From the NCBI GenBank assembly GCA_020051695.1, contig JAGVQM010000019.1:15221-79220 (forward strand): DNA of 64,000 bases. The letters are read 5' to 3'. This document shows, in pieces, positions 2,546 through 42,382 of the stretch. The notes beneath the pieces are model-generated. The model was not told the origin of the DNA. It saw only the letters and a program-made list of their open reading frames with translations, and made no database searches. The stretch is from Candidatus Zixiibacteriota bacterium (GTDB taxonomy: Bacteria; Zixibacteria; MSB-5A5; WJJR01; JAJRUJ01). How positions within the stretch are numbered: position 1 is the stretch's first letter; each line of letters opens with the position of its first letter. The translations under genes were made by a program, and so were the position numbers.

Positions 2546-3244
2546 GTGAAAAATTTGACAATCATCGTCGACAATAATCAGCGGGATTCGGCGGTCCCCA
2601 AGTACATCGAAAGCAAATCCGTGACCATTGAATATGCCAATTTGCGCACCGGGAGTTATTTGATCACCGATAACATGGCCATCGATCGTTTGACCAGCAC
2701 GCAATTTGTCGAGCTTACCTCGCAGAGGGCGTTATTCCGCCGGCTGCTTGATTTCAAGAAAACGTATGAAGAGCCGGTCCTGCTGGTCGAGGGCAATAGT
2801 CTGGCCAAGAATAAAAAAGTCTCCGGCGGCGCCCTGCGCGGGGCGATCTCCTATATCTGCTGTTTGAACCGCATTCCGATTATTTTTACCGCGGATGAAG
2901 TTGAGACCGCCGAGATGCTGTTCATTATCGCCAATCAAACACAGTTCGGCCTGGGCTATGAAGTCTCGGCCCCCGAACCGGAGACCCCGGCGGCGAGTGA
3001 AGGGCAACCGGTAAAGCCAAAGACTCCCGAGGATATCCAGTCGTATATCGTGCAGGCGCTGCCGGATGTCGGTCCGGCGCTGGCAACATCGATTATGACG
3101 ATGTACGGCAATTTGCGCACACTATTTTCCGCCACGGTCGGCGACCTGACCAAAGTCGAGGGCATCGGGCCGAAAAAGGCCAAGAAAATCATCGAGGTCT
3201 TCGATCTTGATTTCGCCGAGGAGAAAAAAGGCAAGAAAAAGTAA
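2546..3244 (+). CDS. ERCC4/XPF-like nuclease-fold protein with C-terminal (HhH)2, catalytic motif apparently degenerate
   Basis: N-terminal IIVDNNQRDS...LRTGSYLITDNMAIDRLTSTQF follows the ERCC4 layout VDxRE...GDY...ERKxxxD. C-terminal LPDVGPALATSIM and VEGIGPKKAKKIIEVF are two helix-hairpin-helix motifs. GTG start. Confidence 0.65.
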   Translation: MKNLTIIVDNNQRDSAVPKYIESKSVTIEYANLRTGSYLITDNMAIDRLTSTQFVELTSQRALFRRLLDFKKTYEEPVLLVEGNSLAKNKKVSGGALRGAISYICCLNRIPIIFTADEVETAEMLFIIANQTQFGLGYEVSAPEPETPAASEGQPVKPKTPEDIQSYIVQALPDVGPALATSIMTMYGNLRTLFSATVGDLTKVEGIGPKKAKKIIEVFDLDFAEEKKGKKK

Positions 3245-3270: not shown

Positions 3271-3296
3271 GCCCGCCTTCGTGCGGGCTTTTTTTT
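3271..3296 (+). terminator. Rho-independent terminator after the ERCC4-like gene
   Basis: GCCCGC-cttcgt-GCGGGC hairpin followed directly by T8, 27 nt after the stop codon, between convergent genes. Confidence 0.8.
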
Positions 3297-3387: not shown

Positions 3388-4029
3388 TCAGCTGAACAAT
3401 TTGAGCAGCCAATCGTCGATGAGGAACTGCACGCGCTCGATCAGCAGCGAAATACGCGCCATCACGGTATAGCCGAACGACGCGCCGAAGCCGATCATCA
3501 ATGTCCAGATGCCGACTTTGGCGATGCCGCCGGTGGCGCCTTTGTGTTCCTTGGAGAAAAAGAAATAGACCAACGACGTGATGATGCCGATCACCACCAC
3601 GACCGTGTTGATACCCGCCCAAAAGTCGGTTTGCGAATTATGGAGAGCGACAAACGACTGCACGGTGCCGAAGATTTGTTCGAGGACTTTGGTCTGCATC
3701 TCCAGCGGGATCGCGACGCCGGTAGCGATGCCCAGATAGAACGCCAGCGGGTACCGGGAAATCCAGGCCCAGCGTTTGACGATCCGGGTCCACATCAGGA
3801 CCCCGAGGAACGCCGGGATAAGATACCACCATTTCCCGGCCAGCAGTTTCTGCCAGATGTTGGGGATAGCCACGTTGACGTACAGGATAGAAACCCAGTA
3901 CCCTGCCGAAACGCCGACGACCAGATGTTCGGTAAATTTATAGAACGGATTGTCCTTGTACAAAAACGAAAAAATGCACAGGGTCAGCACCGCGGCGACG
4001 GTTGTGGCTATGGCAGTGGCGAAATCCAT
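3388..4029 (-). CDS. Cassette subunit A, copy 1: polytopic membrane protein of unknown family
   Basis: 213 aa with multiple hydrophobic segments. Motifs SFLYKDNPFYKF, FFSKEHKGA and FGYTVMARISLL are shared with 34920-35684 and 38640-39383. Start lies 3 nt after the B1 stop. Confidence 0.85.
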   Translation of the reverse strand: MDFATAIATTVAAVLTLCIFSFLYKDNPFYKFTEHLVVGVSAGYWVSILYVNVAIPNIWQKLLAGKWWYLIPAFLGVLMWTRIVKRWAWISRYPLAFYLGIATGVAIPLEMQTKVLEQIFGTVQSFVALHNSQTDFWAGINTVVVVIGIITSLVYFFFSKEHKGATGGIAKVGIWTLMIGFGASFGYTVMARISLLIERVQFLIDDWLLKLFS

Positions 4030-4032
4030 CGT

Positions 4033-4902
4033 TTATAACCCAACCCTGTTCTTTTTGCGGGTGGCAAAATACCCGATGTTACCGACGATAATAAAAATAA
4101 TAATAATTGAGTGCGCGACCACCTGCACGCTCATGCCTTCCACGGCCTTCCCCGGCGTGCCGACCAGCGTTTCATATTCTGCGGCGCCCTGTAATCCACC
4201 GAGGATTCCGAAAATCTGACCGGTCTGCAGATAGGGGTAATAGTCGGTGGCCATGACCCCGGTGACCCCGATGGCCAGCGGAACCTGATACCGGCCGTTG
4301 CCGTATGTAATCCACCAGTCGGTCGCGGAGGTCCCCGAAATGTTGATCACGGCTTTGATATTCTGGTAATTGCGGATACCCTTCATCATCGGCAGCGAAT
4401 CCAGCGGCACATTGTAATAATCGTTGGGGAAGGGGATCCGGTAGTTTTGTCCCATGCCCAGGATAATCAATATCGGGTATGGCTTGTAGCCCAGGAACAC
4501 CCAGTCTTTACCGCTTTCGGGGCGGTAGCCGGTCAGTTCAAAATGCCGCTGGCAGGCCGTGTCGATGGCTTCAGCAGCCATCCCCGGCCCGTTTTGATGC
4601 AAGGCGGTGATAATGACTTTGATCTTCTTTTCAAAACATTGTTTCAGGACGGCCCGCGTCATCGGGTGCAGCTCCGCAAGCGTGGAGGGATCGTAATCCA
4701 TCGCCAGATGGATATAATCGCCGTCACTGAGACTGTTCATATAATCGTAAATGCTGCGCGCTTCCTTGGAAATCGGGATCGGAATCACCGGCTTGGCAAT
4801 GACCGAGAGGACCACTGCCAGCATCAAAAATCCATAGACCCACCGCCGGTCGATGGCGAACATGCGTTCGAAAATGTTTTTTCGCGAATTCTGCTCAGTC
4901 AT
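4033..4902 (-). CDS. Cassette subunit B, copy 1: bitopic protein with a large central soluble domain
   Basis: 289 aa. IDRR followed by an N-terminal TM, a central domain with DYDPSTLAELHPM and GGLQGAAEYE, then a C-terminal TM followed by a basic tail (RKKNR). Paralogs at 35688-36548 and 39380-40237. Confidence 0.85.
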   Translation of the reverse strand: MTEQNSRKNIFERMFAIDRRWVYGFLMLAVVLSVIAKPVIPIPISKEARSIYDYMNSLSDGDYIHLAMDYDPSTLAELHPMTRAVLKQCFEKKIKVIITALHQNGPGMAAEAIDTACQRHFELTGYRPESGKDWVFLGYKPYPILIILGMGQNYRIPFPNDYYNVPLDSLPMMKGIRNYQNIKAVINISGTSATDWWITYGNGRYQVPLAIGVTGVMATDYYPYLQTGQIFGILGGLQGAAEYETLVGTPGKAVEGMSVQVVAHSIIIIFIIVGNIGYFATRKKNRVGL

Positions 4903-4920
4903 GTTCCACCCGAGTTCAGA

Positions 4921-5547
4921 TCAATCCTTGCCCAGATATGATCGTTCAATACCCAGGACCACTTTCATCGCCGTCGAGACGATCCCCAGCCCGACCCCGA
5001 TCAAAATCGCCCGTTTGGCCGCCAGGTTGGGGACATTCAAAATCCAGTCCGAGGTTTTGCCGACCACCGAGGTCAGCGGCCCCAGCGGGAAAAACCGCAT
5101 CATGACGATGATGGCGGCGACCAGCAAAATACTGGCTAAAACCGAGCGGGCACGAAATGCCCGATAAGCGGCCGAGGCAATGAAAAAGGCCAGCAACGAA
5201 AACATCGTCGCCGAGATCGGGATCATGATGTTGTTGAAACTCCAGTCGAACGCCGTCGATAGCGGGGGATAATGATGGCCGATAACGCCGAACGCACTCA
5301 TGACAAACAAGCCGATGAGGGTGACGATGGAGTAACGCCAGGCCTCCGTTTTCCGCCTGATTCTGGTGATGCTCACGCGGGTCAGCGAAATGACGCCGAG
5401 CATCAGCGCAAACACGCCGATAATCGGCGGCCAGTCCAGGGCAATGAATTCGTAGAAAAACTCAGACTTTTCGTGGGGTACGAAATACTGCACGACCATA
5501 AACAGCCCGCAGGAAAAGATAATGATCAGTGGAAACTGCCGTTTCAT
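4921..5547 (-). CDS. Cassette subunit C, copy 1: polytopic membrane protein
   Basis: 208 aa. MKRQFPLII N-terminus, FFIASAAYRAFRARS, and NVPNLAAKRAILIGVGLGIVS..VLGIERSY. Paralogs at 36553-37341 and 40255-40917. Confidence 0.85.
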   Translation of the reverse strand: MKRQFPLIIIFSCGLFMVVQYFVPHEKSEFFYEFIALDWPPIIGVFALMLGVISLTRVSITRIRRKTEAWRYSIVTLIGLFVMSAFGVIGHHYPPLSTAFDWSFNNIMIPISATMFSLLAFFIASAAYRAFRARSVLASILLVAAIIVMMRFFPLGPLTSVVGKTSDWILNVPNLAAKRAILIGVGLGIVSTAMKVVLGIERSYLGKD

Positions 5548-5556
5548 ATCCGTACC

Positions 5557-6906
5557 CTAAATATTCAATGCAAAATAATCCGTGAGCCAGCCCAGATTTA
5601 AAATCCCGGCAATCACTCCGATGACCATGGCCACCAACAGGAGCGCCTTGGCATAATCCTGGGCCTTTAACGTCCCCAACAGAATCGGTTCCCGTCCCAG
5701 GTAGGCCGATGCCGCGTATAATTCCTCACCGATGAGCGTATAGTCGCACGCCACAACGAAAAACGGAAGTTGGGTCACCCGGTCGGTCCCGGAAATCTGG
5801 ATCGACCCGGCCAGCGAACCGGTTTCCGCCAGGATCAGCGATTCGGCGTAGAACACACCCAGGTAGAAATTCGTCGCTGTCTGCCGCCGCAACATGACAC
5901 CGTTGACTGCGGCGACATAGGCAAACTGGTTTTGGGTGACAAAATAGACCATATCTTCGTTATAATCATCCACGCGGCCGGCGTCGATGTAGGCCTGTTT
6001 GACCGTTTCCTGCGCAATGGTCATCACAATCGAATCATAACAGGGGACGATAAGTTCGGTCTGGTACTCGGCGACTTTTTTGGCGACGCGGGAAAGAATG
6101 GTAAACGAGGCAATGGTGGCGATTTCATCGGGCGCCCCCAAACCGAGCACATACAAGATCGGCCGCCCCATTTCGGTCGCGCGGCCGATGGCCTCATCGA
6201 CGGCGTTGATCCCCGCCAACGGCCGGATATACAGTTCCCTGCCGCCCCTGGCCAGTCTGACCATGGTCAGCATCAAGCCCCCGAAGATCAGCACGGCCAG
6301 GACGACCCATGTTTTCCCCGTATGATACCACTGCCCGGATGATTCGACCGGGCCGAAGATTGCGGATTCAGAGACGGCGCCGCCGGTACCGACAGACAGT
6401 ATTTTAAACGAGAATCCGACATCGTCGGGAGAATAATCGTTGCCTTCGCGGGCCTTGCCGCCGCGATTAAAATATTCTGCAGTACCCGCGGGGATACTCG
6501 CAATTGTATCCCATACGCCCTCAACGAGATGCCACCAGGTGCCCTGTTCGTTACGCCATTGGGGCCCGTCGCCCTGTGGTTCGGTCAACGGACCCGCCCA
6601 GCCCGGCGTACGCAGGATCCTATATTGCAGGACATTGTTCCGGCCGCCCAGATCATCGGCGGAGATGTTCCAGGTCAGATGGAAGGCATGGCCATGGTCG
6701 TTGGGGAGGTCCACCACTTGAAGATTGCTGATCGGCGCGGGGGGAGGTTCGACAATAATGGTCGTGGAATCGACAATCAGCGTATCAGAATGGGGTTCGT
6801 CAACTTGCGCTGCTGCTGAAAGGGATAAAACACAACAAATAAAAACGGTTGCGGCTATGCAAATCCAACAATGGGTTGTCCTCACCCCAGCGGCCTCACC
6901 AATCAT
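5557..6906 (-). CDS. Cassette subunit D, copy 1: signal peptide + FN3-like ectodomain + TM + conserved ~230 aa module + C-terminal TM
   Basis: 449 aa. Signal peptide ending SAAAQ, FN3-like HLTWNISADDLGGRNNVLQYRILR, TM WVVLAVLIFGGLMLTMV. Conserved motifs GRATEMGRPILY, AESLILAETG and LPFFVVACDYTLIGEELYAASAYL. Paralogs at 37350-38615 and 40951-42195. Confidence 0.85.
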   Translation of the reverse strand: MIGEAAGVRTTHCWICIAATVFICCVLSLSAAAQVDEPHSDTLIVDSTTIIVEPPPAPISNLQVVDLPNDHGHAFHLTWNISADDLGGRNNVLQYRILRTPGWAGPLTEPQGDGPQWRNEQGTWWHLVEGVWDTIASIPAGTAEYFNRGGKAREGNDYSPDDVGFSFKILSVGTGGAVSESAIFGPVESSGQWYHTGKTWVVLAVLIFGGLMLTMVRLARGGRELYIRPLAGINAVDEAIGRATEMGRPILYVLGLGAPDEIATIASFTILSRVAKKVAEYQTELIVPCYDSIVMTIAQETVKQAYIDAGRVDDYNEDMVYFVTQNQFAYVAAVNGVMLRRQTATNFYLGVFYAESLILAETGSLAGSIQISGTDRVTQLPFFVVACDYTLIGEELYAASAYLGREPILLGTLKAQDYAKALLLVAMVIGVIAGILNLGWLTDYFALNI

Positions 6907-7108
6907 CGGCGGCTAAGAAACCTAAATCCGAGCCAAAACGCAACCCCAAAAAGTGGAAATATCAGCGGAGTACTGTGAATATTATGTAAATATGCAGTAG
7001 AAAGAATTCTCGTGGCATGGGCATCTTCCGCCAAGGGCGGACAGGTGCCCCCGCAGATACACGGGCGGGACGCCCGTGCCACATGGTCATCATAGTCCGG
7101 GACTCGGG

Positions 7109-8458
7109 CTACGCCAGCTCAGCAAGAATCTTCTGAAAATCAGGAAAGCGGGCAAGGATGACATCGGCGTTGTCGATCGTCGTGTCCTTTTCACCGGATA
7201 AACCGGCGACCGCGAAAGCCATGCCGATATCACTGTCACCGTGACAATCAATGTCGGCGGCGTGCCATTCGGTAGGTCCTTCAATGGCCCAGCCGTCCTC
7301 CAGCTCGGCGACTTTGACCCCCATGCGGCGCAGGTTTTCGGTAACCGCGGCAAACGGCAGCAACCCGACATCCTGCAATTCTTTCGCGCCGCGAATCACA
7401 GTCACCCCCACCGCCGATCCGGCGACAACAGCGATTAACGGGAGCTGCCCCGCCAGCGAGGGAATTTCCGAGGCGGAAACTTTGGTAGCTTTGAGCGTCT
7501 CGCCGACCACCTCGATATCACCCACCGGCTCGCCGTTTTCGATACGCCGCTTCTGCGTGGTGATCTCGGCCCCCATGCGCCGCAGGATTTTCAACAGCCC
7601 GGTCCGCGTGGAATTCAAGCCGACGTCGGTGACGACAATCTCCGACCCCGGCCGCACGGTGGCGGCGGCGATCAGCGGCGCGGCCAGCTCATAATCGCCG
7701 GGGATGACCCAATCGACCGGCTGCAGCGGCGCCGCATGCGGAGTAACCGTCAGCCGTTTATGAAATACTTCCCGTTCGGCCAGCGCCTCGTCGGGACGCA
7801 GCAGTTGTTCGCGGCGGCTCAGCGGGCGCTCGGGCCGGACAATTGACGGTTCAATGCCATAGGCAGGTAAAATCCGCTCCAGACTGTCCGGCAACGGCAA
7901 ATCTTCGGTAATTTCGGTGGTGGACGAGGCAAACAGGGCTGCCATCAGCGCAACATCTTTAACCATCGGCAAGCAAGAGCCGGTGGCAATCAACGAACCG
8001 CGTGGCTGGACCGAATTGAATTTGATGCTGGTCTCATCGTTCTCACTGATTTCCGGCAAGATGCCCATGACCGCCAGGGGCTCGAAAACGGCCGCGCGGA
8101 TTGCCGCAGGCACATCTCCAACCAGTGTCGACGGCTGTTTTCCCCCGGCCAGCAGGCCCGCCAATAACCAGTAGGCGACGGGCGCGTCCGGACAATTCAA
8201 CTCGAGGGTGGCCGAAGTCTCCACGCCGGGCGGCCTGCCGTCGATTTGGATAACATGGCGCCCGGCGTTCACGGCCGAGCCGAGCCGGCGGACGCAGTCC
8301 AATACAGTTTGCGCACCGTGGTGCTCCGGCCAGTTGTTGATCGTCGATTTTCCGCCACACAACACCGACAGCACCGCTGCCCGCTGTGCCAGCGCAATGT
8401 CCGGCGGAAAACGGAAACTGCCCCGCACCCGCCGTGTCGGTTTAATCGTCAGTTTCAT
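7109..8458 (-). CDS. EPSP synthase (AroA/MurA fold) family protein, divergent, canonical active-site residues apparently absent
   Basis: 449 aa. VGLNSTRTGLLKILRRMGAEI, EPVGDIEVVG..LKA and a C-terminal MAFAVAGL..FPDF all follow the AroA layout. However, PPDIALAQR replaces PGDKSxSxR and ELQDVGLLP replaces ELRVKESDR. Starts 6 nt after the argS stop. Confidence 0.6.
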   Translation of the reverse strand: MKLTIKPTRRVRGSFRFPPDIALAQRAAVLSVLCGGKSTINNWPEHHGAQTVLDCVRRLGSAVNAGRHVIQIDGRPPGVETSATLELNCPDAPVAYWLLAGLLAGGKQPSTLVGDVPAAIRAAVFEPLAVMGILPEISENDETSIKFNSVQPRGSLIATGSCLPMVKDVALMAALFASSTTEITEDLPLPDSLERILPAYGIEPSIVRPERPLSRREQLLRPDEALAEREVFHKRLTVTPHAAPLQPVDWVIPGDYELAAPLIAAATVRPGSEIVVTDVGLNSTRTGLLKILRRMGAEITTQKRRIENGEPVGDIEVVGETLKATKVSASEIPSLAGQLPLIAVVAGSAVGVTVIRGAKELQDVGLLPFAAVTENLRRMGVKVAELEDGWAIEGPTEWHAADIDCHGDSDIGMAFAVAGLSGEKDTTIDNADVILARFPDFQKILAELA

Positions 8459-24255: not shown

Positions 24256-24972
24256 ATGAACGCACAAATCCTGATTAAAACAACCGGCCTCTGCCGACAT
24301 TATCGGCGGGGACCGCAGGAAATCCGCGCAGTGGATGATGTGAATCTGTCCATTCCAAGGGGAGAATTCCTGGGTATCGTTGGAGCGTCAGGGTCGGGTA
24401 AATCGACACTCCTGAATTTGCTCGCCGGTCTGGACACACCGACCTCCGGTACAATCAACATTGACGGCAGCGCATTGAGCGCCCTGAACCGTCGGCAGCT
24501 GTCCACTCATCGCGCGCGGTGCGTGGGTATGGTGTTTCAATCGTTTAATCTGATTTCGCATCGTACAGCCCTGCAAAATGTCGAACTGGCGTTGTACTTT
24601 AATGACACTCCGCTCGGTGAGCGCACAGGCCGGGCAACGGACATTCTGCAACGCCTGGGATTGGGCGACCGACTGAACCACCGACCGGCCGATTTGTCCG
24701 GTGGTGAACAGCAGCGCGTGGCCTTGGCGCGGGCGCTGGTCAAACGGCCTGAAATCCTGATGGCAGACGAACCGACCGGGAACCTGGATGAAATGAATAC
24801 CCGGCACATCGCCGCGATGCTTGCCGAATTGAATCGCGAGGGTCTTACGGTGCTCATGGCGACTCATGATACTGCGCTGGCCCGCGAATGCGCACGGCGG
24901 GTAATCAGGATGAGCTACGGGCGGCTAGTCAATGAAGAGGATGTCCGGGCCACCGGAGGAGTGACATCATGA
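24256..24972 (+). CDS. ABC transporter ATP-binding protein (LolD/MacB-type)
   Basis: Walker A GASGSGKSTLLN, signature LSGGEQQRVALARAL, Walker B ILMADEPTGNLD. Start taken at ATG 24256. Confidence 0.9.
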   Translation: MNAQILIKTTGLCRHYRRGPQEIRAVDDVNLSIPRGEFLGIVGASGSGKSTLLNLLAGLDTPTSGTINIDGSALSALNRRQLSTHRARCVGMVFQSFNLISHRTALQNVELALYFNDTPLGERTGRATDILQRLGLGDRLNHRPADLSGGEQQRVALARALVKRPEILMADEPTGNLDEMNTRHIAAMLAELNREGLTVLMATHDTALARECARRVIRMSYGRLVNEEDVRATGGVTS

Positions 24973-34594: not shown

Positions 34595-34741
34595 TTGTCC
34601 TGCTCGCTGCCCCCATGGTTTTCTCCGGGGCTTGTTGACTTCGAGGCCTATTTAATTAGAATGCAACATCTTAAGTCAAGGCAAAACCATTATGGGGAAA
34701 GGCGGCGGCGCGGACGACATCACCGGCGAAGAACCGTAGAC

Positions 34742-34815
34742 TACCCCCGGCTGGATTCGAACCAGCTACCCTCGGCTTAGAAGGCCGATGCTCTATCCAT
34801 ATGAGCTACGGGGGC
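34742..34815 (-). tRNA. tRNA-Arg (anticodon TCT)
   Basis: 74 nt cloverleaf read by hand: acceptor GCCCCCG/CGGGGGT, D arm GCTC..GAGC, anticodon stem TCGGC/GCCGA with loop CTTCTAA, T arm GCTGG-TTCGAAT-CCAGC. CCA is not encoded. Confidence 0.9.
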
Positions 34816-34919
34816 ATGTGCCGACGCTATAATACGTCAAATAGGCGCCGCCAATCAAGAGGAAATCCGGTTCAGGACAAGCTGTCCGGCGGAAAAGATT
34901 ATGGCTGATAACAAGTTGC

Positions 34920-35684
34920 CTAGTTAATAAAGCCCAGCCAGTCGCCGAACAGGAAGCGCATGCGGCCGACCAACAGGGAAATACGCGCCATCACCGTGTA
35001 GCCGAAACCCGCGCCGAAAGTGACCATCAGCAGGTAAATGCCCACGCGCGAGGCGGCGCCGAATGCGCCCTTGTGTTCTTTGGAGAAAAAGAAATACACG
35101 ATCCCGCAAAAGACGCCAAGGAACACCACGACTGCTGACAGCGAATCCGTCGTCAGGAAACCGCCGTCCGGCCCGAACACGGCCAGCGGGTTGATCGTGT
35201 TATAAATCTGCCCGATAAAATCCGAACGCAGGTAGCGGACAAAATTCAATCCGGCAGTGGTCCCGACAATAAACGCCAGCGACCAGCGGGAAATCCAACC
35301 AAGCTTCGAAGACAACCGCAGCAATAAAATAATGCCCAAAATCAGCGGCAGGAGATACCAGTAATTCGGTTCGGCATCGGCCACCGAGGGTAAAAATGGC
35401 CGTACCGCCGGCGGATGCAGCCGCCCGATCAGGTTGGGGACCAGTGTCGTCCAAAACCCCATCGACATCCAGTACGCCGCCGAGACCCCAACAAACAAAT
35501 GCTCGGCAAATTTATAGAACGGGTTGTCTTTATACAAAAAGCTCAGGATACATAAAGTCAGGAACGCGCCGAACGTGATATAAAACCCTTCAAACGCCCG
35601 GGCATCGCGCGCCATGATCGAGATGACGAACGCAATGATCAGCACGATAAATCCGATCAGATAGATGATAGCCCTGCGTTGCAT
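34920..35684 (-). CDS. Cassette subunit A, copy 2
   Basis: 254 aa polytopic protein with SFLYKDNPFYKF, FFSKEHKGA and FGYTVMARISLL. Start lies 3 nt after the B2 stop. Confidence 0.85.
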   Translation of the reverse strand: MQRRAIIYLIGFIVLIIAFVISIMARDARAFEGFYITFGAFLTLCILSFLYKDNPFYKFAEHLFVGVSAAYWMSMGFWTTLVPNLIGRLHPPAVRPFLPSVADAEPNYWYLLPLILGIILLLRLSSKLGWISRWSLAFIVGTTAGLNFVRYLRSDFIGQIYNTINPLAVFGPDGGFLTTDSLSAVVVFLGVFCGIVYFFFSKEHKGAFGAASRVGIYLLMVTFGAGFGYTVMARISLLVGRMRFLFGDWLGFIN

Positions 35685-35687
35685 CGC

Positions 35688-36548
35688 CTATTTCGCCCGC
35701 GCTTTCCGTTTCCGGTCGATGAAAAAGGTCGCGTTGCCGATAATGATGAACAGCATGATCACGATATGCGCCACCGCCTGCGGCCCCATCATCTCCAGCC
35801 CGCCGTGCGGCATTTGCTCAAAATCGGGATATTTCCGGATCATTTCCGATTCGTATTCGGCTGCGCCCTTGATCCCCCCCATCATGCCCAGCATCTGGTT
35901 GGGATAATACGGATACAACTGCGGCGCCGAGACCGCGGTCACCCCGCCGGCCACCGGTATGTTGCCGGGGTCGCCGGCAAAAAGGATCCACTCTTTCAAA
36001 CCGGGAAAGCCGCCGCCGAAGGCCGCGATTAAGTCCATGTTTTTCAAACTGCGGACATCCCGCATCATCGGAATGCTGTCAATCTGCGTGCCGTTGACAT
36101 CGGTAGTATACATCTTCTTCATGTCGGTAATGATCACGTTGATCAGGCCCTGATTACCCGCCTTGTATCCCAGATGGACATAATCCACACCGCAAACCTT
36201 ATCCGGGAAATGTGTCGTGACGATACGGTCGATCGTCTCATCGGCCAGATTTTGCCCCGTGCCCCACAACGCCATGACATACAATTTCAGATTTCGCCGG
36301 CAACAGTGATACATCACGGCATCAACCATCGGTTGCTGTTCGGGAACAGTGGAGGGATCGAAATCCAGCGAAATCAACACCCGCGAACCCTCAGGCAGGG
36401 TCTCGATTTTATCGAAGATCTTCTGCACAATCGGCGTAATCCGCTCGGGAAAGATGACATTGAACAACAGGGGAATAATTACGGACAAGGCAATAAACAA
36501 AAAGATTATCCGCCGGTCGATGTTCTTGATGGTATCGAAAAAGGCCAT
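35688..36548 (-). CDS. Cassette subunit B, copy 2
   Basis: 286 aa. NIDRR followed by a TM, DFDPSTVPEQQPM, GGIKGAAEYE, and a C-terminal TM with an RKRKARAK tail. Confidence 0.85.
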   Translation of the reverse strand: MAFFDTIKNIDRRIIFLFIALSVIIPLLFNVIFPERITPIVQKIFDKIETLPEGSRVLISLDFDPSTVPEQQPMVDAVMYHCCRRNLKLYVMALWGTGQNLADETIDRIVTTHFPDKVCGVDYVHLGYKAGNQGLINVIITDMKKMYTTDVNGTQIDSIPMMRDVRSLKNMDLIAAFGGGFPGLKEWILFAGDPGNIPVAGGVTAVSAPQLYPYYPNQMLGMMGGIKGAAEYESEMIRKYPDFEQMPHGGLEMMGPQAVAHIVIMLFIIIGNATFFIDRKRKARAK

Positions 36549-36552
36549 GGCG

Positions 36553-37341
36553 TTAATCCTTGTCCCGTCCGAGATATGTCCGTTCGATGCCCAGGATCAC
36601 CCGCAGCGACATCGAAATTACTCCCAGCGAAATGCCGATAATAATTGCCCGCTGGCCCGCCAGGTTGGGGACCCCCATAATCCAGTTGGTCAGGTTAGGC
36701 ACTTCGAAAAACGACAGCGCATCAGGCAGCCAGAACGTGGCATAGTACCCGGCGGGCGTCCGCCCCAGCAGAATGACAAAGGCAGTGACCAGCAGGACGG
36801 TGGCTTCCTTGTTTTTAGCCCGGAATGCGCGATACGACGCCGAGGCCACAAAAAAGGCCAGCAGCGCGTACATCGTCGCTTTCAGCGGAGTAAAGACATA
36901 CGTGAAAAAGTCCTGAAACACCGAGCCGGTGGCGGTGAGATTCCCCACCCAGCCGCCGGGGTTGCCGATTTTGAACAACCCGGCCCAGAGCATGACGAAA
37001 AATCCGATGAGTGTGACCATCGAGAAAAACCAGTCTTTGCCGCGCCGGTCCTCGATCCCGCCCATCGCATGGAAGGGAAACGCAATGAGCATCTTCAACG
37101 GCCAGAAGCCCCCCTGTTTCCTGCTTTCCGTGAAATAGAACTTCAACCCGCGGAAGAACCGCCCACTGTGGATCCGCACCAGGTTGCCGCCGCCGAGGAA
37201 GAAGGCAAACACGGCGATGATATCAAAATACAGGCTGAAATTTTCACCCAGCCGGCCGAACGGGTCATGCGGAATAAACGCCGCGATGATCAGCACCGCG
37301 CCGACGGTGAACGTGATTAATAATGGTACCTGCCGTTTCAT
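36553..37341 (-). CDS. Cassette subunit C, copy 2
   Basis: Start placed at ATG 37341 (MKRQVPLLITF), matching the C1 and C3 N-termini. FFVASASYRAFRAKNKEAT and GQRAIIIGISLGVISMSLRVILGIERTY. Confidence 0.85.
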   Translation of the reverse strand: MKRQVPLLITFTVGAVLIIAAFIPHDPFGRLGENFSLYFDIIAVFAFFLGGGNLVRIHSGRFFRGLKFYFTESRKQGGFWPLKMLIAFPFHAMGGIEDRRGKDWFFSMVTLIGFFVMLWAGLFKIGNPGGWVGNLTATGSVFQDFFTYVFTPLKATMYALLAFFVASASYRAFRAKNKEATVLLVTAFVILLGRTPAGYYATFWLPDALSFFEVPNLTNWIMGVPNLAGQRAIIIGISLGVISMSLRVILGIERTYLGRDKD

Positions 37342-37349
37342 GGTTTTGC

Positions 37350-38615
37350 CTATTGATTCAGCCGGAACAGATCGCGCACCCATTCGCCGGCGGTGGTGGC
37401 AATCCCGACATTAAACAATGACCCGATAGTCAGCAGTGTCACGCCGGCCAGGATCGCCAGCATCGCGATCATCTTGCCGACATCCTGCCCCTTCAACGAC
37501 CCCAGCTGGCGCGGTTCGTGCGACAGATAAGCCGAGGCGGCGAACAACTCCTCACCGATCAGCGTATAATCGCAGGCCGCGACAAAAAACGGCAGCTGTG
37601 CGGGCATCGCCGTGCCGGCGATCTGGATCGCCTCGATGGAATGGCCGGTCTCGGCCATAATCAGCGATTCGGCGAAAAACGCGCCGAGATAGAAACAGGT
37701 CGCCGGCCTTTCGCGCACCATGATCCCGTCCACCGCCGCGACATACCCGAACTGTTCGTCGGTGACATACTGCACATAATCATCCGAGTATGCATCGGGG
37801 CGCCCGGCGGCCAGATAGGCCTCTTTAATCGACTCGCGCGCGGTGGTCATCACAATCGAGCGTGAAGTCGGGACAAACAACTTGGAATCATATTCGGCGA
37901 TGGTCTTGGCGATCCGCCCCAAGATCGTAATCCCGGCCACGGTCTGCACGTCGTCCATGTCCTGGATGCCGGGGATAAACAAAATCGGCCGCCCCATTTC
38001 GGTGGCGCGTCCGATCGCCTCGTCGACCGCTTCGAGTCCGGCGATTTTGCGGATAAAGAGTATTTTGCCCCTTTTGGCCGAGGCGATGAAATACCCGATA
38101 AACAACGAGATGATTCCACCGACGACAAACAAATTCAGGATATTGAAATTAAACCACTGCGCGGACGATCGGACCGGACCGATCACCGGCGAAGACGACG
38201 AGCCCCCGGCTGTCTGGGTCTCGATTCTGTAATAGAAATCCGTCCCCGGCACGGTCGAGGCATCAGTGTATCTTTTTTCTCCGGCCGAGGAAAACCCGGT
38301 CTCGCGAAACGGCCCTTCCGGCGATTCGGCGCGCAAAATGCGGTAGCCCGTGACCAGGTTTTCGCCGGGACGGTCATCGGCCGACAGCTCCCAAAAGACA
38401 TTGATCGAATGCCCTTCATCGGAAGGCGTGTCTTCCGCCCCCGCATTGACCGGCGGCGCAGGCCGGCGGACCGCGGCCATCATCCCCGCAACGCCCGTAG
38501 CGGCGGAATCGGCCGGCGCCGAATCGACAACCTGGGCGACCATGCCGGAAGCCGGCAGCAGCATCCCTGCCAGAAGACAGCAAAAAAGAATTTTGTGCAG
38601 CACCTTCATGGTCAC
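37350..38615 (-). CDS. Cassette subunit D, copy 2
   Basis: 421 aa. Signal peptide, FN3-like INVFWELSADDRPGENLVTGYRILR, a TM, GRATEMGRPILF, AESLIMAETG, LPFFVAACDYTLIGEELFAASAYL, and a C-terminal TM. Confidence 0.85.
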   Translation of the reverse strand: MTMKVLHKILFCCLLAGMLLPASGMVAQVVDSAPADSAATGVAGMMAAVRRPAPPVNAGAEDTPSDEGHSINVFWELSADDRPGENLVTGYRILRAESPEGPFRETGFSSAGEKRYTDASTVPGTDFYYRIETQTAGGSSSSPVIGPVRSSAQWFNFNILNLFVVGGIISLFIGYFIASAKRGKILFIRKIAGLEAVDEAIGRATEMGRPILFIPGIQDMDDVQTVAGITILGRIAKTIAEYDSKLFVPTSRSIVMTTARESIKEAYLAAGRPDAYSDDYVQYVTDEQFGYVAAVDGIMVRERPATCFYLGAFFAESLIMAETGHSIEAIQIAGTAMPAQLPFFVAACDYTLIGEELFAASAYLSHEPRQLGSLKGQDVGKMIAMLAILAGVTLLTIGSLFNVGIATTAGEWVRDLFRLNQ

Positions 38616-38639
38616 GACGTCAATTCAGTTTCAGACCGA

Positions 38640-39383
38640 CTAGTTAATCAATTGCAACCAATCACTCATGAGATAATCCATGCGGCCGATCAACAGCGAT
38701 AACCGGCTCATGACCGTATACCCGAATGATGCGCCGAACGTGAGCATCAGTGTCCAGATCCCGATTTTGGCCACCCCGCCGAATGCGCCTTTATGTTCCT
38801 TGGAAAAATAAAAATAGATCAGTCCGGAGAGCGTCCCGATGACCAATATTGCCTGAGAAATGGTCGCCCACAAGTCGAGATTCCCGGCGGCATCGTAACG
38901 CTGCAGCGGGCCAGCAGAGGCCCCCAGCTGGAGGATGCCGTTGGAAACAAAGTAATTGATAAAATACAACCCCGCCGTCGCGCCGACCACCACCGCCAGC
39001 GGCCAGCGGGAGATCCACCCCGCTTTGGGAAACAACCGCATCAGCATCAGGACGCCCAGAAGCCCGCCGATCAGCATCATCCACCGGTCATCCCATCCGC
39101 CGCCCTGCACGAACGTCGTGTGATAGGCCGCGCCGACCCCGACGAAGAGCTTGGAATACATATTCTGCCAGAATAATGAGACAAACCAATAGCCGGCGGA
39201 AATTCCCACAAATGCGGCTTCGGAAAACTTGTAATACGGGTTGTCTTTATACAAGAAGGAAAAGATACCGATGGTAAAAAACGCACCCAGGGTCACCGCA
39301 AGGCCCTGGGATGCGGCCAGGATCGCAAAAACGGCGATTCCGACGGCGATAACGATATAGCCGACTACTTTGGTGTTCATCAT
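38640..39383 (-). CDS. Cassette subunit A, copy 3
   Basis: 247 aa with SFLYKDNPYYKF, YFSKEHKGA and FGYTVMSRLSLL. ATGA overlap with the B3 stop. Confidence 0.85.
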   Translation of the reverse strand: MMNTKVVGYIVIAVGIAVFAILAASQGLAVTLGAFFTIGIFSFLYKDNPYYKFSEAAFVGISAGYWFVSLFWQNMYSKLFVGVGAAYHTTFVQGGGWDDRWMMLIGGLLGVLMLMRLFPKAGWISRWPLAVVVGATAGLYFINYFVSNGILQLGASAGPLQRYDAAGNLDLWATISQAILVIGTLSGLIYFYFSKEHKGAFGGVAKIGIWTLMLTFGASFGYTVMSRLSLLIGRMDYLMSDWLQLIN

Positions 39384-40237
39384 GTTTGCTTCCGCCGGCC
39401 ACCGGCAAAGTAGGCCACATTACCCACGATGATGAAGAGGATCACGATGATGTGGGCAAATGACTGGGATAACATGAATTTCGTGGCCTTGCCCAGGGTA
39501 CCGGCCAACTCTTCAAATTCCGAAGCGCCCTTGAGGCCGCCCAGAATCCCCCGGAGCTGCCCGCTTTCAAAATAGGGATACGCCAGCGGGGCCTGTACTG
39601 CTGTCGTCCCCCCCAATAATTGTACCCCGAAACGATCAACGCCGAATTGCACCCACTCCACAATACCCGGATATCCGGCGGAGACATTGATCACAAAGTC
39701 GATATTGTTAAAATTCTGCATTCCCTGCATCAGCGGTAACTCGGCGATTGGCGTGCCCCGGAAATCGCGCGGGAATGCCGCGGGAATCGACGAACCCATC
39801 CGCTGGATCACCAATTCATTGCCGGCCTGGAAACCGAGGTTGACCCAGTCGCGGCCATAGGTCAGCGTCTTGCCCTTCCAGATAATCGTTTCTCCGGGCA
39901 CCTCGCCCAGTACGGACTCCAAGGCGGCATTGGCCTGCTGCGGTCCCTGCGGCCACAGTCCCATGATGATCATCTTCAAGTCATGATCGAGGCAATACCG
40001 GATCGCCGTTATCGCCATCGGCTGCAATTCCGGCGCCGAGGGAGGGTCATAATCACAGGGAATGAGCACGCGGGCGCCCGGCTGCAGTCGCGCCAGTTCG
40101 TCAAAACCACGACGCACTTCGTAAGAAATCGTGGTCTTTTGGGAGATATTCAAAAATAACGGCAGGGTGACCGCAACGATGACGAACAGGAAAATAATCC
40201 GCCGGTCGATCTTCATCAATTTGTCCCAAAAACCCAT
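39380..40237 (-). CDS. Cassette subunit B, copy 3
   Basis: Start placed at ATG 40237 (MGFWDKLMKIDRRIIFLF), matching B1 and B2. The tracked 348 aa ORF adds 63 non-homologous residues that overlap C3. DYDPPSAPELQPM and GGLKGASEFE. Confidence 0.85.
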   Translation of the reverse strand: MGFWDKLMKIDRRIIFLFVIVAVTLPLFLNISQKTTISYEVRRGFDELARLQPGARVLIPCDYDPPSAPELQPMAITAIRYCLDHDLKMIIMGLWPQGPQQANAALESVLGEVPGETIIWKGKTLTYGRDWVNLGFQAGNELVIQRMGSSIPAAFPRDFRGTPIAELPLMQGMQNFNNIDFVINVSAGYPGIVEWVQFGVDRFGVQLLGGTTAVQAPLAYPYFESGQLRGILGGLKGASEFEELAGTLGKATKFMLSQSFAHIIVILFIIVGNVAYFAGGRRKQT

Positions 40238-40254
40238 GCCGTTCCTGCCTGTCA

Positions 40255-40917
40255 TCAATCGCCGCTGACAAATGTCCGTTCGATCCCCAGAATAATCCGC
40301 AATGATGTCGACATGATCCCCAGCGCGATGCCGATCATGATCGCCCGCTGCCCGGCGGTGTTGGGGATGTTCATCACCCAATCGGCCCAGTTGGACAACC
40401 ACAGCCAGTGGGGCAACTGCAACCATTCTTTGGTGATCATATCACCGACCGGCACCCGCCCCAGCATCACAAAAAATGCAGCCAACAGCAGCATCGTCGC
40501 TTCCTTGTTGCGGGCGCGGAAGGCCCGATAGGAAGCCGAGGCCACGAAAAAACCGAGAAGGGCAAACATCGTGGAGGACAGCGGATCATAGACATTATCA
40601 TAAATGAACATGAACCGCGTACCGGGCTCCTGAAAATTCGCTCCTCTGGAGAAAAAGATGCCGACGATAAATATTGCGGCAAAACCGATAATCGTCACCA
40701 GTGAATACATCCAGTCTTTCTTGCGCCGGGCAACCTTGAGCAACGACAATTTCATCAAGTTCAGCGCACCCAGCCAGATGGCAAAGGCCTGAATGATCCC
40801 AAACCAGTCGGAAAACCAGTCGGAAAACCGGGAAACCGGTTCGTGCGGCACGAAATATTGGAAGATGTACATGATCCCCACCACCGCAGTGATGATCAAT
40901 GGAACTTCACGCTTCAT
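40255..40917 (-). CDS. Cassette subunit C, copy 3
   Basis: 220 aa. MKREVPLII, FFVASASYRAFRARNKEAT and GQRAIMIGIALGIMSTSLRIILGIERTF. Confidence 0.85.
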   Translation of the reverse strand: MKREVPLIITAVVGIMYIFQYFVPHEPVSRFSDWFSDWFGIIQAFAIWLGALNLMKLSLLKVARRKKDWMYSLVTIIGFAAIFIVGIFFSRGANFQEPGTRFMFIYDNVYDPLSSTMFALLGFFVASASYRAFRARNKEATMLLLAAFFVMLGRVPVGDMITKEWLQLPHWLWLSNWADWVMNIPNTAGQRAIMIGIALGIMSTSLRIILGIERTFVSGD

Positions 40918-40950
40918 CTTCGCTCAAACCCTTCCCGTCTCCCCACGACG

Positions 40951-42195
40951 CTACACCTGGAACCACCCGGAAATATCCGCAATCTTAAATGTTCCCAGGA
41001 GCAAACCTGCGACAGCCGCGATCAAGATCAGTACTTTGGCCACGTCCTGACCCTTGACGCTGCCCAGTAATTTCGGTTCTTTCGACAGATAGGCCGAGGC
41101 GGCAAAAAGCTCTTCGCCAATTAATGTATAGTCGCAGGCCGCCACAAAAAACGGCAATTGAGAGGCATTCGCGGTGCCCGCGATCTGAATCGCACCGATC
41201 GCATTGCCGGTTTCGGCCATAATTAACGACTCGGCGTAAAACGCGCCCATATAGAAAATCGTCGCCGGTTTCTCGCGGACAAACAAGCCGTCCAGCGCAG
41301 CGGCATAACCGAACTGGTCATCGGTAAGATAACGCACGATGTCTTCGTTGAACGCATCCGGCCGGCCGACGTTCAAATAGGCCTCCTTCACCACCTCGCG
41401 GGAGGTGATCATCACCAGTGAACGCGAAACCGGAACATCCAATTGCGCATCGTACTCCGCGGCCAGTTTGGCGATCCGCCCCAGGATGGTCACCCCAGCC
41501 AGGGTCTGGACATTATCCATATCCTGTGTCCCGGGGATATACACCAGCTTGCGGCCCATTTCGGTGGCGCGCCCGACCGCCTGTTCGACTTCCGCCAGAC
41601 CGGCGATAGGCCGGACGTACAAATCCTTGCCCTTCTTGGCCACATTGATAAACCACAAAATCGAAATTCCGATTACCAGCACCCAGGGCAAAATCCGTGC
41701 GGTGCGAATGATATGAAACCACTGGCCGGAGGCTTTCGCGGCCCCGGAGAGCGGCGAAGCCACGCCGGCAAACAGTTTTTCCCCGGCCGGAGTGAACTTG
41801 CCGGCCAGGGCGGCCACCTTATAGTAATAATTTACCCCGTTGTCGACCTGGCCGTCGGTGAGCGTGGTCATTCCGGCGGTCGCGGAACCAACGGTATCAA
41901 ACGGCCCGTCGGGCGAAGTCGAACGCAAGATAATATACTTGGTGACATTTCTGCGGCCGGCAACATCATCGGCGGACAGTTCCCAACTGATAGTAATCGA
42001 TTTCCCGGCGTCATCAGGGGTATCCTGGGCTTCGACCGAGACAACCGGCGCCGGGGCTTCGAGTTGGGGCGGAGTTTCAGCCACAACGACCGTGGTCGAG
42101 TCGACGGGAGCATCCTGTGCCCAGGCAGGCGATGCCGCGCCACATACAGGAAAGACCAGCAGGAACAGGGAGATGGACAACGCTTTTTTCATCAT
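40951..42195 (-). CDS. Cassette subunit D, copy 3
   Basis: Start placed at ATG 42195 (MMKKALSISLFLLVFPVCGAASPAWA signal peptide). The tracked GTG at 42225 lies inside a terminator hairpin. ITISWELSADDVAGRRNVTKYIILR, GRATEMGRKLVY, AESLIMAETG and LPFFVAACDYTLIGEELFAASAYL. Confidence 0.85.
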   Translation of the reverse strand: MMKKALSISLFLLVFPVCGAASPAWAQDAPVDSTTVVVAETPPQLEAPAPVVSVEAQDTPDDAGKSITISWELSADDVAGRRNVTKYIILRSTSPDGPFDTVGSATAGMTTLTDGQVDNGVNYYYKVAALAGKFTPAGEKLFAGVASPLSGAAKASGQWFHIIRTARILPWVLVIGISILWFINVAKKGKDLYVRPIAGLAEVEQAVGRATEMGRKLVYIPGTQDMDNVQTLAGVTILGRIAKLAAEYDAQLDVPVSRSLVMITSREVVKEAYLNVGRPDAFNEDIVRYLTDDQFGYAAALDGLFVREKPATIFYMGAFYAESLIMAETGNAIGAIQIAGTANASQLPFFVAACDYTLIGEELFAASAYLSKEPKLLGSVKGQDVAKVLILIAAVAGLLLGTFKIADISGWFQV

Positions 42196-42210
42196 CAGCA
42201 GTTCCTGCAC

Positions 42211-42241
42211 AAAAAAAATCCCCACCTGCTTTGAGGTGAGG
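42211..42241 (-). terminator. Intrinsic-terminator hairpin inside the 5' leader of the tandem cassette operon (candidate attenuator)
   Basis: Minus strand reads CCTCACCT-caaagc-AGGTGGGG (8 bp stem with one G.U), then A and T8, ending 15 nt before ATG 42195. No minus-strand gene ends immediately upstream of it. Confidence 0.65.
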
Positions 42242-42352
42242 TCCTATTCATCGACGAGACTGGGTTCCCGGACAATGACTTGTTCTGCGTTTCCCGTCTC
42301 TCATAACCGTCACTATTATCCCATCCCCATCCCGCACACTCACAAGTGATAG

Positions 42353-42382
42353 AATATACCCCCCGCATATACCGCCTGTCAA
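42353..42382 (-). promoter_or_regulatory. Candidate sigma70-type promoter of the tandem cassette operon
   Basis: Minus strand reads TTGACA (42382-42377), 18 nt spacer, TATATT (42358-42353). This predicts a leader of roughly 150 nt. Confidence 0.5.

What the first reader, a model, noticed from the sequence alone, without database searches (positions are those of the whole stretch)
3388..6906. Third, dispersed and more divergent copy of the same D-C-B-A cassette
Genes 5557-6906, 4921-5547, 4033-4902 and 3388-4029 repeat the D, C, B, A types in the same order and on the same strand, about 28 kb from the tandem pair. By eye, D2 and D3 resemble each other more than either resembles D1. Examples are DMD.VQT.AG.TILGRIAK in D2/D3 against APDEIATIASFTILSRVAK in D1, and a longer Trp-rich ectodomain in D1. 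Three complete paralogous sets in one 64 kb window imply functional diversification, such as different substrates or partners, of a system the organism invests in heavily.
Basis: seen in the sequence. Interest (0 to 1): 0.72.

Follow-up and report, generated by a model that had tools for sequence, protein, structure and literature searches.

The report
Third copy of unknown membrane-complex operon
The four genes are a real third copy of a widespread four-protein membrane complex that no one has characterised; the copy was once the last module of a 12-gene array and was later split off by a chromosome rearrangement.

Summary
Genes 5557-6906 (D), 4921-5547 (C), 4033-4902 (B) and 3388-4029 (A) are full-length paralogs of the two tandem cassettes at 34920-42225 (BLASTP E 1e-45 to 1e-144). 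Identity is highest in a soluble domain, not in the hydrophobic segments. Only D matches a catalogued family (DUF6754). A, B and C match nothing in Pfam, NCBIfam, PADLOC, PHROGs or PDB sequences.

In at least 13 related genomes labelled Zixibacteria or Ignavibacteria, the three sets form one contiguous 12-gene array in the order set1-set2-set3. The window keeps that order and strand, with 28 kb of housekeeping genes and a tRNA-Arg at the break.

In all four subunit trees each set is monophyletic (94-100% bootstrap), so the subunits co-diverged and were not exchanged. Set 3 groups with single cassettes of Poribacteria and other phyla, so it belongs to a deep lineage and is not a decayed duplicate.

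Predicted anatomy:
- A and C have about six transmembrane helices each.
- B has a periplasmic alpha/beta domain between two helices.
- D has a periplasmic Fn3 domain and a highly conserved cytoplasmic Rossmann-like domain.

The function is unknown. My best guess, at low confidence, is an envelope-directed translocase whose periplasmic modules vary.

The parts
5557..6906 (-). D3: signal peptide, periplasmic Fn3-like domain (about res 56-190, with a Trp-rich insert), TM helix (196-220), cytoplasmic Rossmann-like DUF6754 domain (about 231-405), C-terminal TM helix
4921..5547 (-). C3: about 6-TM subunit with invariant R129, R179, E201, R202 (motifs ASAAYRAFRAR and GIERSYLG)
   Evidence: ORF. Hydropathy. 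Alignment A5. No consistent Pfam family.
4033..4902 (-). B3: TM helix, about 210-aa periplasmic alpha/beta-type domain, TM helix; N- and C-termini predicted cytoplasmic
   Evidence: ORF. Hydropathy. Alignment A3. No PDB or Pfam relative. The family has 4,715 clusters at 50% identity.
3388..4029 (-). A3: about 5-6-TM subunit with invariant motifs LYKDNPFYKFxEH and FFSKEHKG
   Evidence: ORF. Alignment A6. No consistent Pfam family. Natural B-A fusion proteins P0290 and P0314.
6907..7108 (-). 200-nt AT-rich spacer between aroA and D3, with a stem-loop just after the aroA stop; probably the cassette's own promoter region
   Evidence: Read from the sequence. The consensus scan found no sigma-70-type match on the - strand here, so the promoter is inferred only.
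37350..38615 (-). D2 (set 2)
36553..37341 (-). C2 (set 2); likely start is MKRQVPLL, although the mechanical ORF runs to 37383
35688..36548 (-). B2 (set 2)
34920..35684 (-). A2 (set 2)
40951..42225 (-). D1 (set 1); the true start is probably the ATG near 42195 (MMKKALS...)
40255..40917 (-). C1 (set 1)
39380..40237 (-). B1 (set 1); true start is MGFWDK. The mechanical ORF up to 40426 overlaps C1.
38640..39383 (-). A1 (set 1); its start overlaps the B1 stop (ATGA). D2 starts 24 nt after the A1 stop.
34741..34816 (-). tRNA-Arg(TCT), about 100 nt downstream of A2, at the point where the ancestral array is interrupted
   Evidence: ARAGORN. Rfam. Absent from the 18 scanned loci that hold a contiguous A2-D3 junction.
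42353..42382 (-). Promoter-like site TTGACA-N18-TATATT (11 of 12) upstream of set 1

Best explanation
Genes 3388-6906 encode the third of three ancient paralogous versions of one four-subunit inner-membrane complex (D, C, B, A).

Composition of the complex:
- A and C are polytopic subunits of about 6 TM helices each.
- B places an alpha/beta domain of about 210 aa in the periplasm between two TM helices.
- D places an Fn3 domain in the periplasm and a highly conserved, carboxylate-rich Rossmann-like domain (DUF6754) in the cytoplasm.
- Each cassette is a self-sufficient unit.

History: the three sets were ancestrally one 12-gene array (set1-set2-set3). In this lineage set 3 was cut off by chromosomal rearrangement, and it now sits behind aroA with its own upstream spacer.

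Mechanism (inferred, about 0.3-0.35 on its own): the conserved cytoplasmic D domain docks on the conserved cytoplasmic loops of A and C. It binds or processes a substrate that is passed through the A/C membrane core to variable periplasmic modules (the B domain and the D Fn3 domain). That would make it an envelope-directed translocase or export-modification machine. The three sets would share the same cytoplasmic chemistry and differ in periplasmic specificity.

Shown: paralogy, co-divergence, the ancestral array, domain anatomy, and the absence of relatives among characterised systems. Inferred: physical complex, topology, transport role, and differing specificities.
For: Paralogy: E-values 1e-45 to 1e-144.

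Conserved unit:
- D-C-B-A order in all 92 complete cassettes found in 59 of 80 loci, from genomes labelled Zixibacteria, Ignavibacteria, Poribacteria, WOR-3, Stahlbacteria, Aegiribacteria, Sabulitectum and Armatimonadota.
- At least 13 genomes carry a contiguous set1-set2-set3 array.
- Each set is monophyletic at 94-100% bootstrap in every subunit tree, and at 100% in the concatenated tree.
- Set 3 groups with single cassettes of other phyla. Sets 1 and 2 group with WOR-3/Stahlbacteria cassettes.

Evidence for a physical complex:
- 3-33 nt gaps or ATGA overlaps between genes.
- Mantel r 0.81-0.91.
- Natural B-A fusion proteins.

Conserved cytoplasmic part, variable periplasmic part:
- D Rossmann-like domain 55-71% identical between sets, against 33-43% for Fn3 and 33-38% for the B domain.
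- 65 of 185 Rossmann positions are fixed in all three sets.
- Some homologs carry CARDB or HEAT inserts in B.

Rearrangement:
- Closer relatives L081 and L083 also have a detached set 3, with the same downstream ERCC4 / 423-aa / HD genes and a different upstream.
- The intervening 28 kb holds housekeeping genes, and no mobile-element gene was seen among those scanned.
Against: - Nothing points to a substrate. No riboswitch is present, and no neighbouring gene is conserved across all loci.
- The cassette has no ATPase and no recognisable transporter fold.
- The fold of the D domain is generic. Foldseek against PDB gave no hit at E <= 1e-3, and the domain has no known nucleotide-binding motif.
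- AF2 confidence is low to moderate (pLDDT 43-68) over the most conserved stretch of D (residues 363-409), so its place in the Rossmann fold is uncertain.
- Few set-specific fixed residues exist, so different specificity is not demonstrated.
Confidence: 0.6

Rival explanations
1. The three sets are not independent units. Together they build one 12-subunit hetero-oligomeric super-complex, and the detached set 3 still assembles with sets 1 and 2.
For: The order set1-set2-set3 is fixed in at least 13 contiguous arrays, with 24-190 nt junctions. The conserved core residues are nearly identical in all three sets.
Against: Many genomes of other phyla carry a single cassette of either lineage. Set 3 is detached here and in L081 and L083. 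Other arrays have the order set1-set3-other, as in L006, L013, L015 and L016.
Confidence: 0.13
2. The complex is an energy converter: an ion-motive-force-driven mechanotransducer to the envelope, or an ion or redox pump built like Na+-NQR/Rnf. That architecture also has two small 6-TM subunits, a bitopic periplasmic-domain subunit and a bitopic subunit with a cytoplasmic Rossmann-type domain.
For: Subunit sizes and topologies resemble NqrD/E, NqrC and NqrF (the comparison rests on my own knowledge of NQR). Invariant charged residues lie in or next to the TM helices of A and C. A frequent upstream neighbour, c17, has weak NqrA_N / RnfC_N matches at E 0.003-0.006.
Against: Scans of 28-32 members per family at E <= 1 listed no Rnf-Nqr match (only the top 25 of 48 families are shown for C) and no FMN-binding match. 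B has no conserved Cys pairs and no [ST]GA[ST] flavinylation motif (alignments). D has no Fe-S or dinucleotide motif.
Confidence: 0.12
3. The three sets are functionally equivalent. They would be kept for dosage or differential regulation rather than for different substrates or partners.
For: Only 6 conservative set-specific differences occur among the 71 Rossmann-domain columns conserved within every set. The periplasmic domains vary as much within sets as between them. Set 3 now has a separate upstream region, while sets 1 and 2 share a strong promoter-like site.
Against: All three orthologous groups stay distinct across many genomes, and their divergence predates or spans phyla. Pure dosage copies are normally homogenised or lost.
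Confidence: 0.15
4. The complex is a transmembrane receptor or signalling assembly. The Fn3 and B ectodomains would sense something in the periplasm, and D's cytoplasmic domain would relay the signal.
Against: No output domain (kinase, cyclase or DNA-binding) and no conserved regulator neighbour was found. Extreme conservation of a carboxylate-rich cleft suggests catalysis or substrate handling. Two six-TM partner subunits are unusual for a sensor.
Confidence: 0.08

Closest known systems
Pfam DUF6754 (PF20539)
   Same: D3, D2 and D1 match it end to end (E 1e-115 to 1e-120).
   Different: The Pfam entry describes one domain of unknown function. It does not cover the three partner proteins, the operon or the paralogous arrays. 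No paper in the searched library mentions DUF6754.
Na+-NQR / Rnf membrane complexes
   Same: Similar parts list: two small subunits of about 200 aa and 6 TM helices, a bitopic subunit with a periplasmic domain, and a bitopic subunit with a cytoplasmic Rossmann-type domain. A weakly NqrA_N-like soluble protein is sometimes encoded next door.
   Different: No sequence relationship is detectable, there are no cofactor motifs, and there is no 10-TM NqrB/RnfD equivalent.
RCK/KTN, USP, SIS and GT-B half-domains (Rossmann-like folds)
   Different: Sequence identity is 4-12% in all but one hit (Asp1, 18%). Neither the GxGxxG motif nor the USP ATP-binding motif is present. Foldseek finds nothing significant. 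The resemblance is at the level of general fold only.
MacB/FtsX-type (LolCDE-like) mechanotransmission systems
   Same: The concept is similar: a conserved cytoplasmic part coupled through TM helices to a periplasmic domain that sits between two helices.
   Different: There is no FtsX or MacB_PCD domain and no ABC ATPase. Genuine MacB/FtsX genes occur elsewhere in the same window (24969-26432).

Membership tests
DUF6754 (PF20539) | Match to the Pfam model above the gathering score (27 bits) | tested here: met
   D3 scores 382.9 bits and D2 400.6 bits. The precomputed Pfam assignment for D3 homologs is also PF20539.
D-C-B-A cassette (the uncharacterised system defined here) | Four adjacent same-strand genes in the order D, C, B, A, each homologous to its counterpart | tested here: met
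   The order is the same in 92 complete cassettes from 59 loci.
D-C-B-A cassette, 'set 3' orthologous group | All four subunits fall in the clade formed by third-position cassettes of tandem arrays | tested here: met
   NJ bootstrap support: D 100, C 94, B 100, A 100, concatenated 100.
Na+-NQR / Rnf | NqrD/E-RnfA/E family membrane subunits (Pfam Rnf-Nqr) | tested here: not met
   No Rnf-Nqr match is listed for A or C when 32 members of each family are scanned at E <= 1. For C only the 25 most frequent of 48 weakly matched families are shown.
Na+-NQR / Rnf | Periplasmic FMN-binding subunit with a [S/T]GA[S/T] flavinylation site | tested here: not met
   The conserved segment of B is G-V-T-G/A-V, and B has no FMN_bind match. 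The motif definition comes from my own knowledge.
ABC / MacB-FtsX transporters | ABC ATPase with Walker motifs; FtsX or ABC permease domain | tested here: not met
   No ABC_tran, FtsX or MacB_PCD match in A-D.
RCK/KTN-gated cation transporters | TrkA_N-type domain with a GxGxxG dinucleotide-binding loop | tested here: not met
GT-B glycosyltransferases | Two Rossmann-like domains forming an inter-domain sugar-nucleotide site | tested here: inconclusive
Anti-phage defence systems / phage genes | Match to PADLOC or PHROGs models | tested here: not met
   No hits for any subunit.
Any structurally characterised protein | Sequence-profile match to a PDB chain | tested here: not met
   Profiles of B and D against PDB gave nothing below E 0.4. 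A and C were not searched against PDB, and none of A, B or C was modelled.

The most novel reading that the evidence does not exclude
The D-C-B-A cassette encodes a previously unrecognised class of multi-subunit inner-membrane machine. It would be unrelated to any characterised transporter, respiratory, secretion or signalling family. It would have a conserved cytoplasmic catalytic module and exchangeable periplasmic adaptors, and it was expanded into a stable 12-gene, three-module array in Zixibacteria.
Probability: 0.45. Interest if true: 0.78.

Novelty: categorically new. Interest (0 to 1): 0.62.

Why it matters
A four-protein membrane complex found across many candidate phyla, in up to three or four copies per genome, has no assigned function. 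Three of its four subunits do not even belong to a named family. It probably marks a gap in what is known about envelope or membrane biology in phyla that are themselves almost uncharacterised.

This work makes the problem experimentally approachable in three ways:
- It defines the unit, which is the four genes D, C, B and A.
- It defines two deep lineages and three orthologous sets.
- It identifies the most conserved module, D's cytoplasmic carboxylate-rich domain.

The Zixibacteria arrays are also a clean natural case of whole-operon duplication in which all subunits co-diverged.

Tried and rejected
- **Family searches.** Pfam and NCBIfam on all 12 proteins matched only DUF6754. Per-member Pfam scans of the A, B and C alignments at E <= 1 gave only scattered single-helix noise.
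- **Defence or phage origin.** PADLOC and PHROGs gave nothing.
- **PDB by sequence.** Profile searches for B and D gave nothing.
- **Homology among the subunits.** hhalign between the A, B, C and D families, and between the halves of A and of C, found no relationship and no internal repeat. A shared origin of B and D is therefore not supported.
- **Fold searches.**
  - A model of the DUF6754 part alone gave only generic Rossmann-like matches.
  - The afdb50 library was not available.
- **Genomic context.**
  - No fifth gene is conserved across all loci.
  - The recurrent GlmL/MutL-like gene and its 375-aa partner are absent from this window and from the Poribacteria loci.
- **RNA regulation.** No riboswitch or other Rfam element lies near any cassette.
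- **Leader hairpin.**
  - The terminator-like hairpin upstream of D1 is not conserved in relatives.
  - Its fold is no better than shuffled sequence, z = -1.3.
- **Mobile-element insertion between set 2 and set 3.** Rejected for the genes scanned, which are dapF, an aminotransferase, UDP-glucose dehydrogenase, a MATE transporter, MacB/FtsX, an M3 peptidase and similar.
- **Literature.** Searches for DUF6754 and for related terms found nothing relevant.
- **Looking up the window's contig.** The exact-sequence look-up of D3 failed.
Full report
**1. Observation**

- D3: 5557-6906, 449 aa
- C3: 4921-5547, 208 aa
- B3: 4033-4902, 289 aa
- A3: 3388-4029, 213 aa

The tandem pair is set 2 followed by set 1 in window coordinates.
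- Set 2: D 37350-38615, C 36553-37341, B 35688-36548, A 34920-35684.
- Set 1: D 40951-42225, C 40255-40917, B 39380-40237, A 38640-39383.
- Three mechanical ORFs carry spurious N-terminal extensions: C2, B1 and probably D1.

BLASTP between paralogs:

| Subunit | Identity |
|---|---|
| A | 44-46% |
| B | 32-37% |
| C | 35-42% |
| D1-D2 | 53% |
| D3-D1 / D3-D2 | 43% |

E-values run from 1e-45 to 1e-144, and the four types show no similarity to one another. tblastn finds exactly these 12 genes in the window and nothing else. 'More divergent' is true only of D.

The similarity is not confined to hydrophobic stretches. It peaks in D's soluble domain at 55-71% and falls to 16-45% in the TM helices and 33-43% in the periplasmic domains.

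**2. What the proteins are**

Only D belongs to a catalogued family, DUF6754 (PF20539, E about 1e-115). The other searches found nothing:
- A, B and C match no Pfam or NCBIfam model, even when 28-32 members of each family are scanned at E <= 1.
- No subunit matches a PADLOC or PHROGs model.
- Profiles of B and D find no PDB chain.
- Public sources call all four 'hypothetical protein'.
- Precomputed annotation for the orthologous operon lists no Pfam hit for C, B or A.
- No paper in the library mentions DUF6754.

Hydropathy and the positive-inside rule (my inference) give this layout:
- A has about 5-6 TM helices.
- C has about 6 TM helices.
- B is a TM helix, a soluble domain of about 210 aa (predicted periplasmic) and a second TM helix.
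- D is a signal peptide, an ectodomain, a TM helix, a soluble domain of about 185 aa (predicted cytoplasmic) and a final TM helix.

AlphaFold2 modelled D3 at mean pLDDT 77.
- A second model of residues 190-449 alone shows a six-stranded (beta-alpha)6 Rossmann-like domain (pLDDT 78, pTM 0.63).
- Foldseek against PDB gives no hit at E <= 1e-3.

The invariant residues of the Rossmann-like domain cluster near the C-terminal ends of the strands, where Rossmann-type folds usually bind ligands. They include many carboxylates: E245, E355, E361, D388, E394 and E395. No GxGxxG or Walker motif is present.

The conserved motifs of A (LYKDNPFYKFxEH, FFSKEHKG) and C (YRAFRAR, GIERSYLG) fall in loops I predict to be cytoplasmic. 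The overall picture is a conserved cytoplasmic face and a variable periplasmic face.

**3. Evidence for one complex**

- The D-C-B-A order is invariant in 92 complete cassettes from 59 of 80 related loci.
- Genes are separated by 3-33 nt or overlap as ATGA.
- Distance matrices of the four subunits correlate strongly: Mantel r 0.81-0.91, with 0 of 999 permutations reaching the observed value.
- Natural B-A fusion proteins exist (P0290 and P0314, 598 aa).
- The four families are not detectably related to one another (hhalign).
- The B family alone has 4,715 clusters at 50% identity with E <= 1e-3.

**4. Evolutionary history**

The closest named homologs are from Zixibacteria. In at least 13 genomes labelled Zixibacteria or Ignavibacteria(les), three cassettes lie head to tail as one 12-gene array. 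In those arrays every gene is most similar to the window paralog of the same position. Examples are L001, L003, L007, L008, L023, L032 and L049.

Read along the - strand, the window has the same order: set 1, set 2, a 28,014-nt gap, then set 3. The 'dispersed' copy is therefore the detached third module of an ancestral array.

I built NJ trees with 100 bootstraps from nine genomes carrying three cassettes plus 13 single-cassette outgroups.

| Tree | Set 1 | Set 2 | Set 3 |
|---|---|---|---|
| D | 98 | 100 | 100 |
| C | 100 | 100 | 94 |
| B | 100 | 100 | 100 |
| A | 100 | 100 | 100 |
| Concatenated | 100 | 100 | 100 |

- Sets 1+2 form a clade (56-99% in single-gene trees, 100% concatenated).
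- The three sets together are not monophyletic against other phyla (0-15%).
- The subunits therefore co-diverged as sets, and I saw no exchange between them.

In the 95-cassette tree:
- Set 3 groups with single cassettes of Poribacteria, Armatimonadota, Aegiribacteria and Sabulitectum.
- Sets 1 and 2 group with WOR-3 and Stahlbacteria cassettes.
- Caveat: the loci were ranked by similarity to D3, so these data cannot show which lineage is more widespread.

Closer relatives also have a detached set 3. These are L081 (D 77% identical) and L083 (68%).
- Downstream they share the window's genes: ERCC4 nuclease, a 423-aa protein and an HD-domain protein (window 2546-3244, 928-2199, 41-820).
- Upstream they differ: L081 has TIR, SLFN and TPR genes, whereas the window has aroA and argS.

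The 28-kb interval holds ordinary chromosomal genes, and I saw no integrase or transposase among those scanned. A tRNA-Arg(TCT) lies about 100 nt after A2, exactly at the break. None of the 18 scanned loci that hold a contiguous A2-D3 junction has a tRNA.

**5. Do the three sets differ in function?**

- All family-invariant residues are intact in all three window sets.
- In D's Rossmann-like domain, 71 columns are conserved within every set. Of these, 65 are identical across sets, and the 6 that differ do so conservatively.
- The periplasmic Fn3 domain and the B domain are the most divergent parts between sets. They also vary within each set: only 5 of 135 Fn3 positions are conserved within all three sets.
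- Some B homologs carry CARDB or HEAT-repeat inserts in the same periplasmic loop.
- My reading is one shared cytoplasmic chemistry with fast-evolving periplasmic adaptors. Long retention of three distinct orthologous groups argues against plain redundancy, but different specificity is not shown.

**6. Function**

Context gives no clear lead. No fifth gene is universal, and neighbours differ by lineage:
- Zixibacteria arrays: pyruvate phosphate dikinase and ADP-forming acetyl-CoA synthetase, named by my reading of the sequences.
- Poribacteria: aroK and aroB, also by my reading.
- This window: aroA, confirmed by Pfam.
- Several lineages: a GlmL/MutL-family actin-fold ATPase (PF13941, E 1e-126) with a highly conserved 375-aa partner, directly upstream or divergent. 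Neither gene is in this window.

No riboswitch is present.

I commit, at about one chance in three, to an envelope-directed translocase or export-modification machine. In this model D's cytoplasmic domain handles the substrate, A and C form the membrane path, and B and the Fn3 domain act in the periplasm. The rivals are an NQR/Rnf-like or mechanotransducing energy converter, a receptor complex, a 12-subunit super-complex, and functionally equivalent copies. I score these separately in the report.

**7. Comparison with known systems and novelty**

The only membership that holds is DUF6754 for D. I tested and did not confirm the defining features of NQR/Rnf, ABC/MacB, RCK-gated transporters and defence systems. 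The comparison with GT-B glycosyltransferases is inconclusive.

The system therefore matches no known kind with the tools available, and I label it categorically new. The caveat is that A, B and C were not modelled and no HHsearch against PDB or Pfam could be run. I put the chance that the label survives those tests at about 0.45.

**8. Verdict**

Paralogy and co-divergence hold, 'dispersed divergent duplicate' needs correcting, and diversification is plausible but untested.
- Interest is moderately high. A large and wholly uncharacterised four-subunit membrane system is defined here with clear units, lineages and a candidate active site.

Noticed in passing
window 34741-34816 (-): A tRNA-Arg(TCT) lies about 100 nt downstream of A2, exactly where the ancestral set2-set3 junction is interrupted. 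None of the 18 scanned loci that keep this junction intact has a tRNA.
   Followed up: partly
window 42210-42382 (-): This is the strongest promoter-like site in the region (TTGACA-N18-TATATT, 42382-42353). It is followed by a terminator-like hairpin plus a U8 run (42241-42210), just before D1's likely ATG near 42195. It could be an attenuating leader. However, its fold is not better than shuffled sequence (z = -1.3), it has no Rfam match, and it is not conserved upstream of D in other loci.
   Followed up: yes
L006, L013, L016, L038, L052 (same strand, directly upstream of D); L001, L005, L021, L024, L032, L050, L072 (divergent): A 617-aa GlmL/MutL-family actin-fold ATPase (PF13941) and a 375-aa protein recur next to the cassette in several lineages. 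The 375-aa protein is 75-89% identical across Zixibacteria and has weak NqrA_N/RnfC_N-like matches. In L038 the pair sits between two cassettes. They may be cytoplasmic partners, but both are absent from this window and from the Poribacteria loci.
   Followed up: partly
proteins P0290, P0314 (598 aa); P0323, P0279: Natural B-A fusion proteins exist. Other B homologs have HEAT-repeat or CARDB modules inserted in the variable periplasmic loop.
   Followed up: partly
L006, L013, L015, L016 (and L012): Some arrays have the order set1-set3-X. X is a fourth, more distant cassette type that branches with lineage I.
   Followed up: partly
window 43199-46138 (-) and 42441-43184 (+): Next to set 1 there is a 979-aa protein with four Fn3 domains and a purple-acid-phosphatase-N-like domain, and a 247-aa ORF with no family match. 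Neither is a conserved neighbour in other genomes.
   Followed up: no
L081 3831-9643: In the closest relative with a long contig, the region upstream of the set 3 ortholog holds SLFN/AlbA_2, TIR and TPR genes, which looks like a defence island. The window has aroA and argS in that position, so this boundary is a variable spot.
   Followed up: no
window 7109-8458 (aroA); Poribacteria loci L043, L054, L056 and others, upstream of D: Shikimate-pathway genes lie directly upstream of the cassette in two unrelated lineages: aroA here, and aroK plus aroB in Poribacteria. Zixibacteria arrays are followed by PPDK, and Fermentibacteria-type loci are preceded by transketolase. This may be coincidence among housekeeping genes.
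   Followed up: no
window 39380-40426, 36553-37383, 40951-42225: The mechanical ORFs of B1, C2 and D1 have N-terminal extensions that overlap the preceding gene or a hairpin. From the alignments the likely starts are 40237 (MGFWDK), 37341 (MKRQVPLL) and about 42195 (MMKKALS).
   Followed up: yes
window 3271-3288: A GC-rich hairpin followed by T8 lies between the convergent ERCC4-nuclease gene (2546-3244, +) and A3 (3388-4029, -). It is likely the terminator for this gene pair.
   Followed up: no
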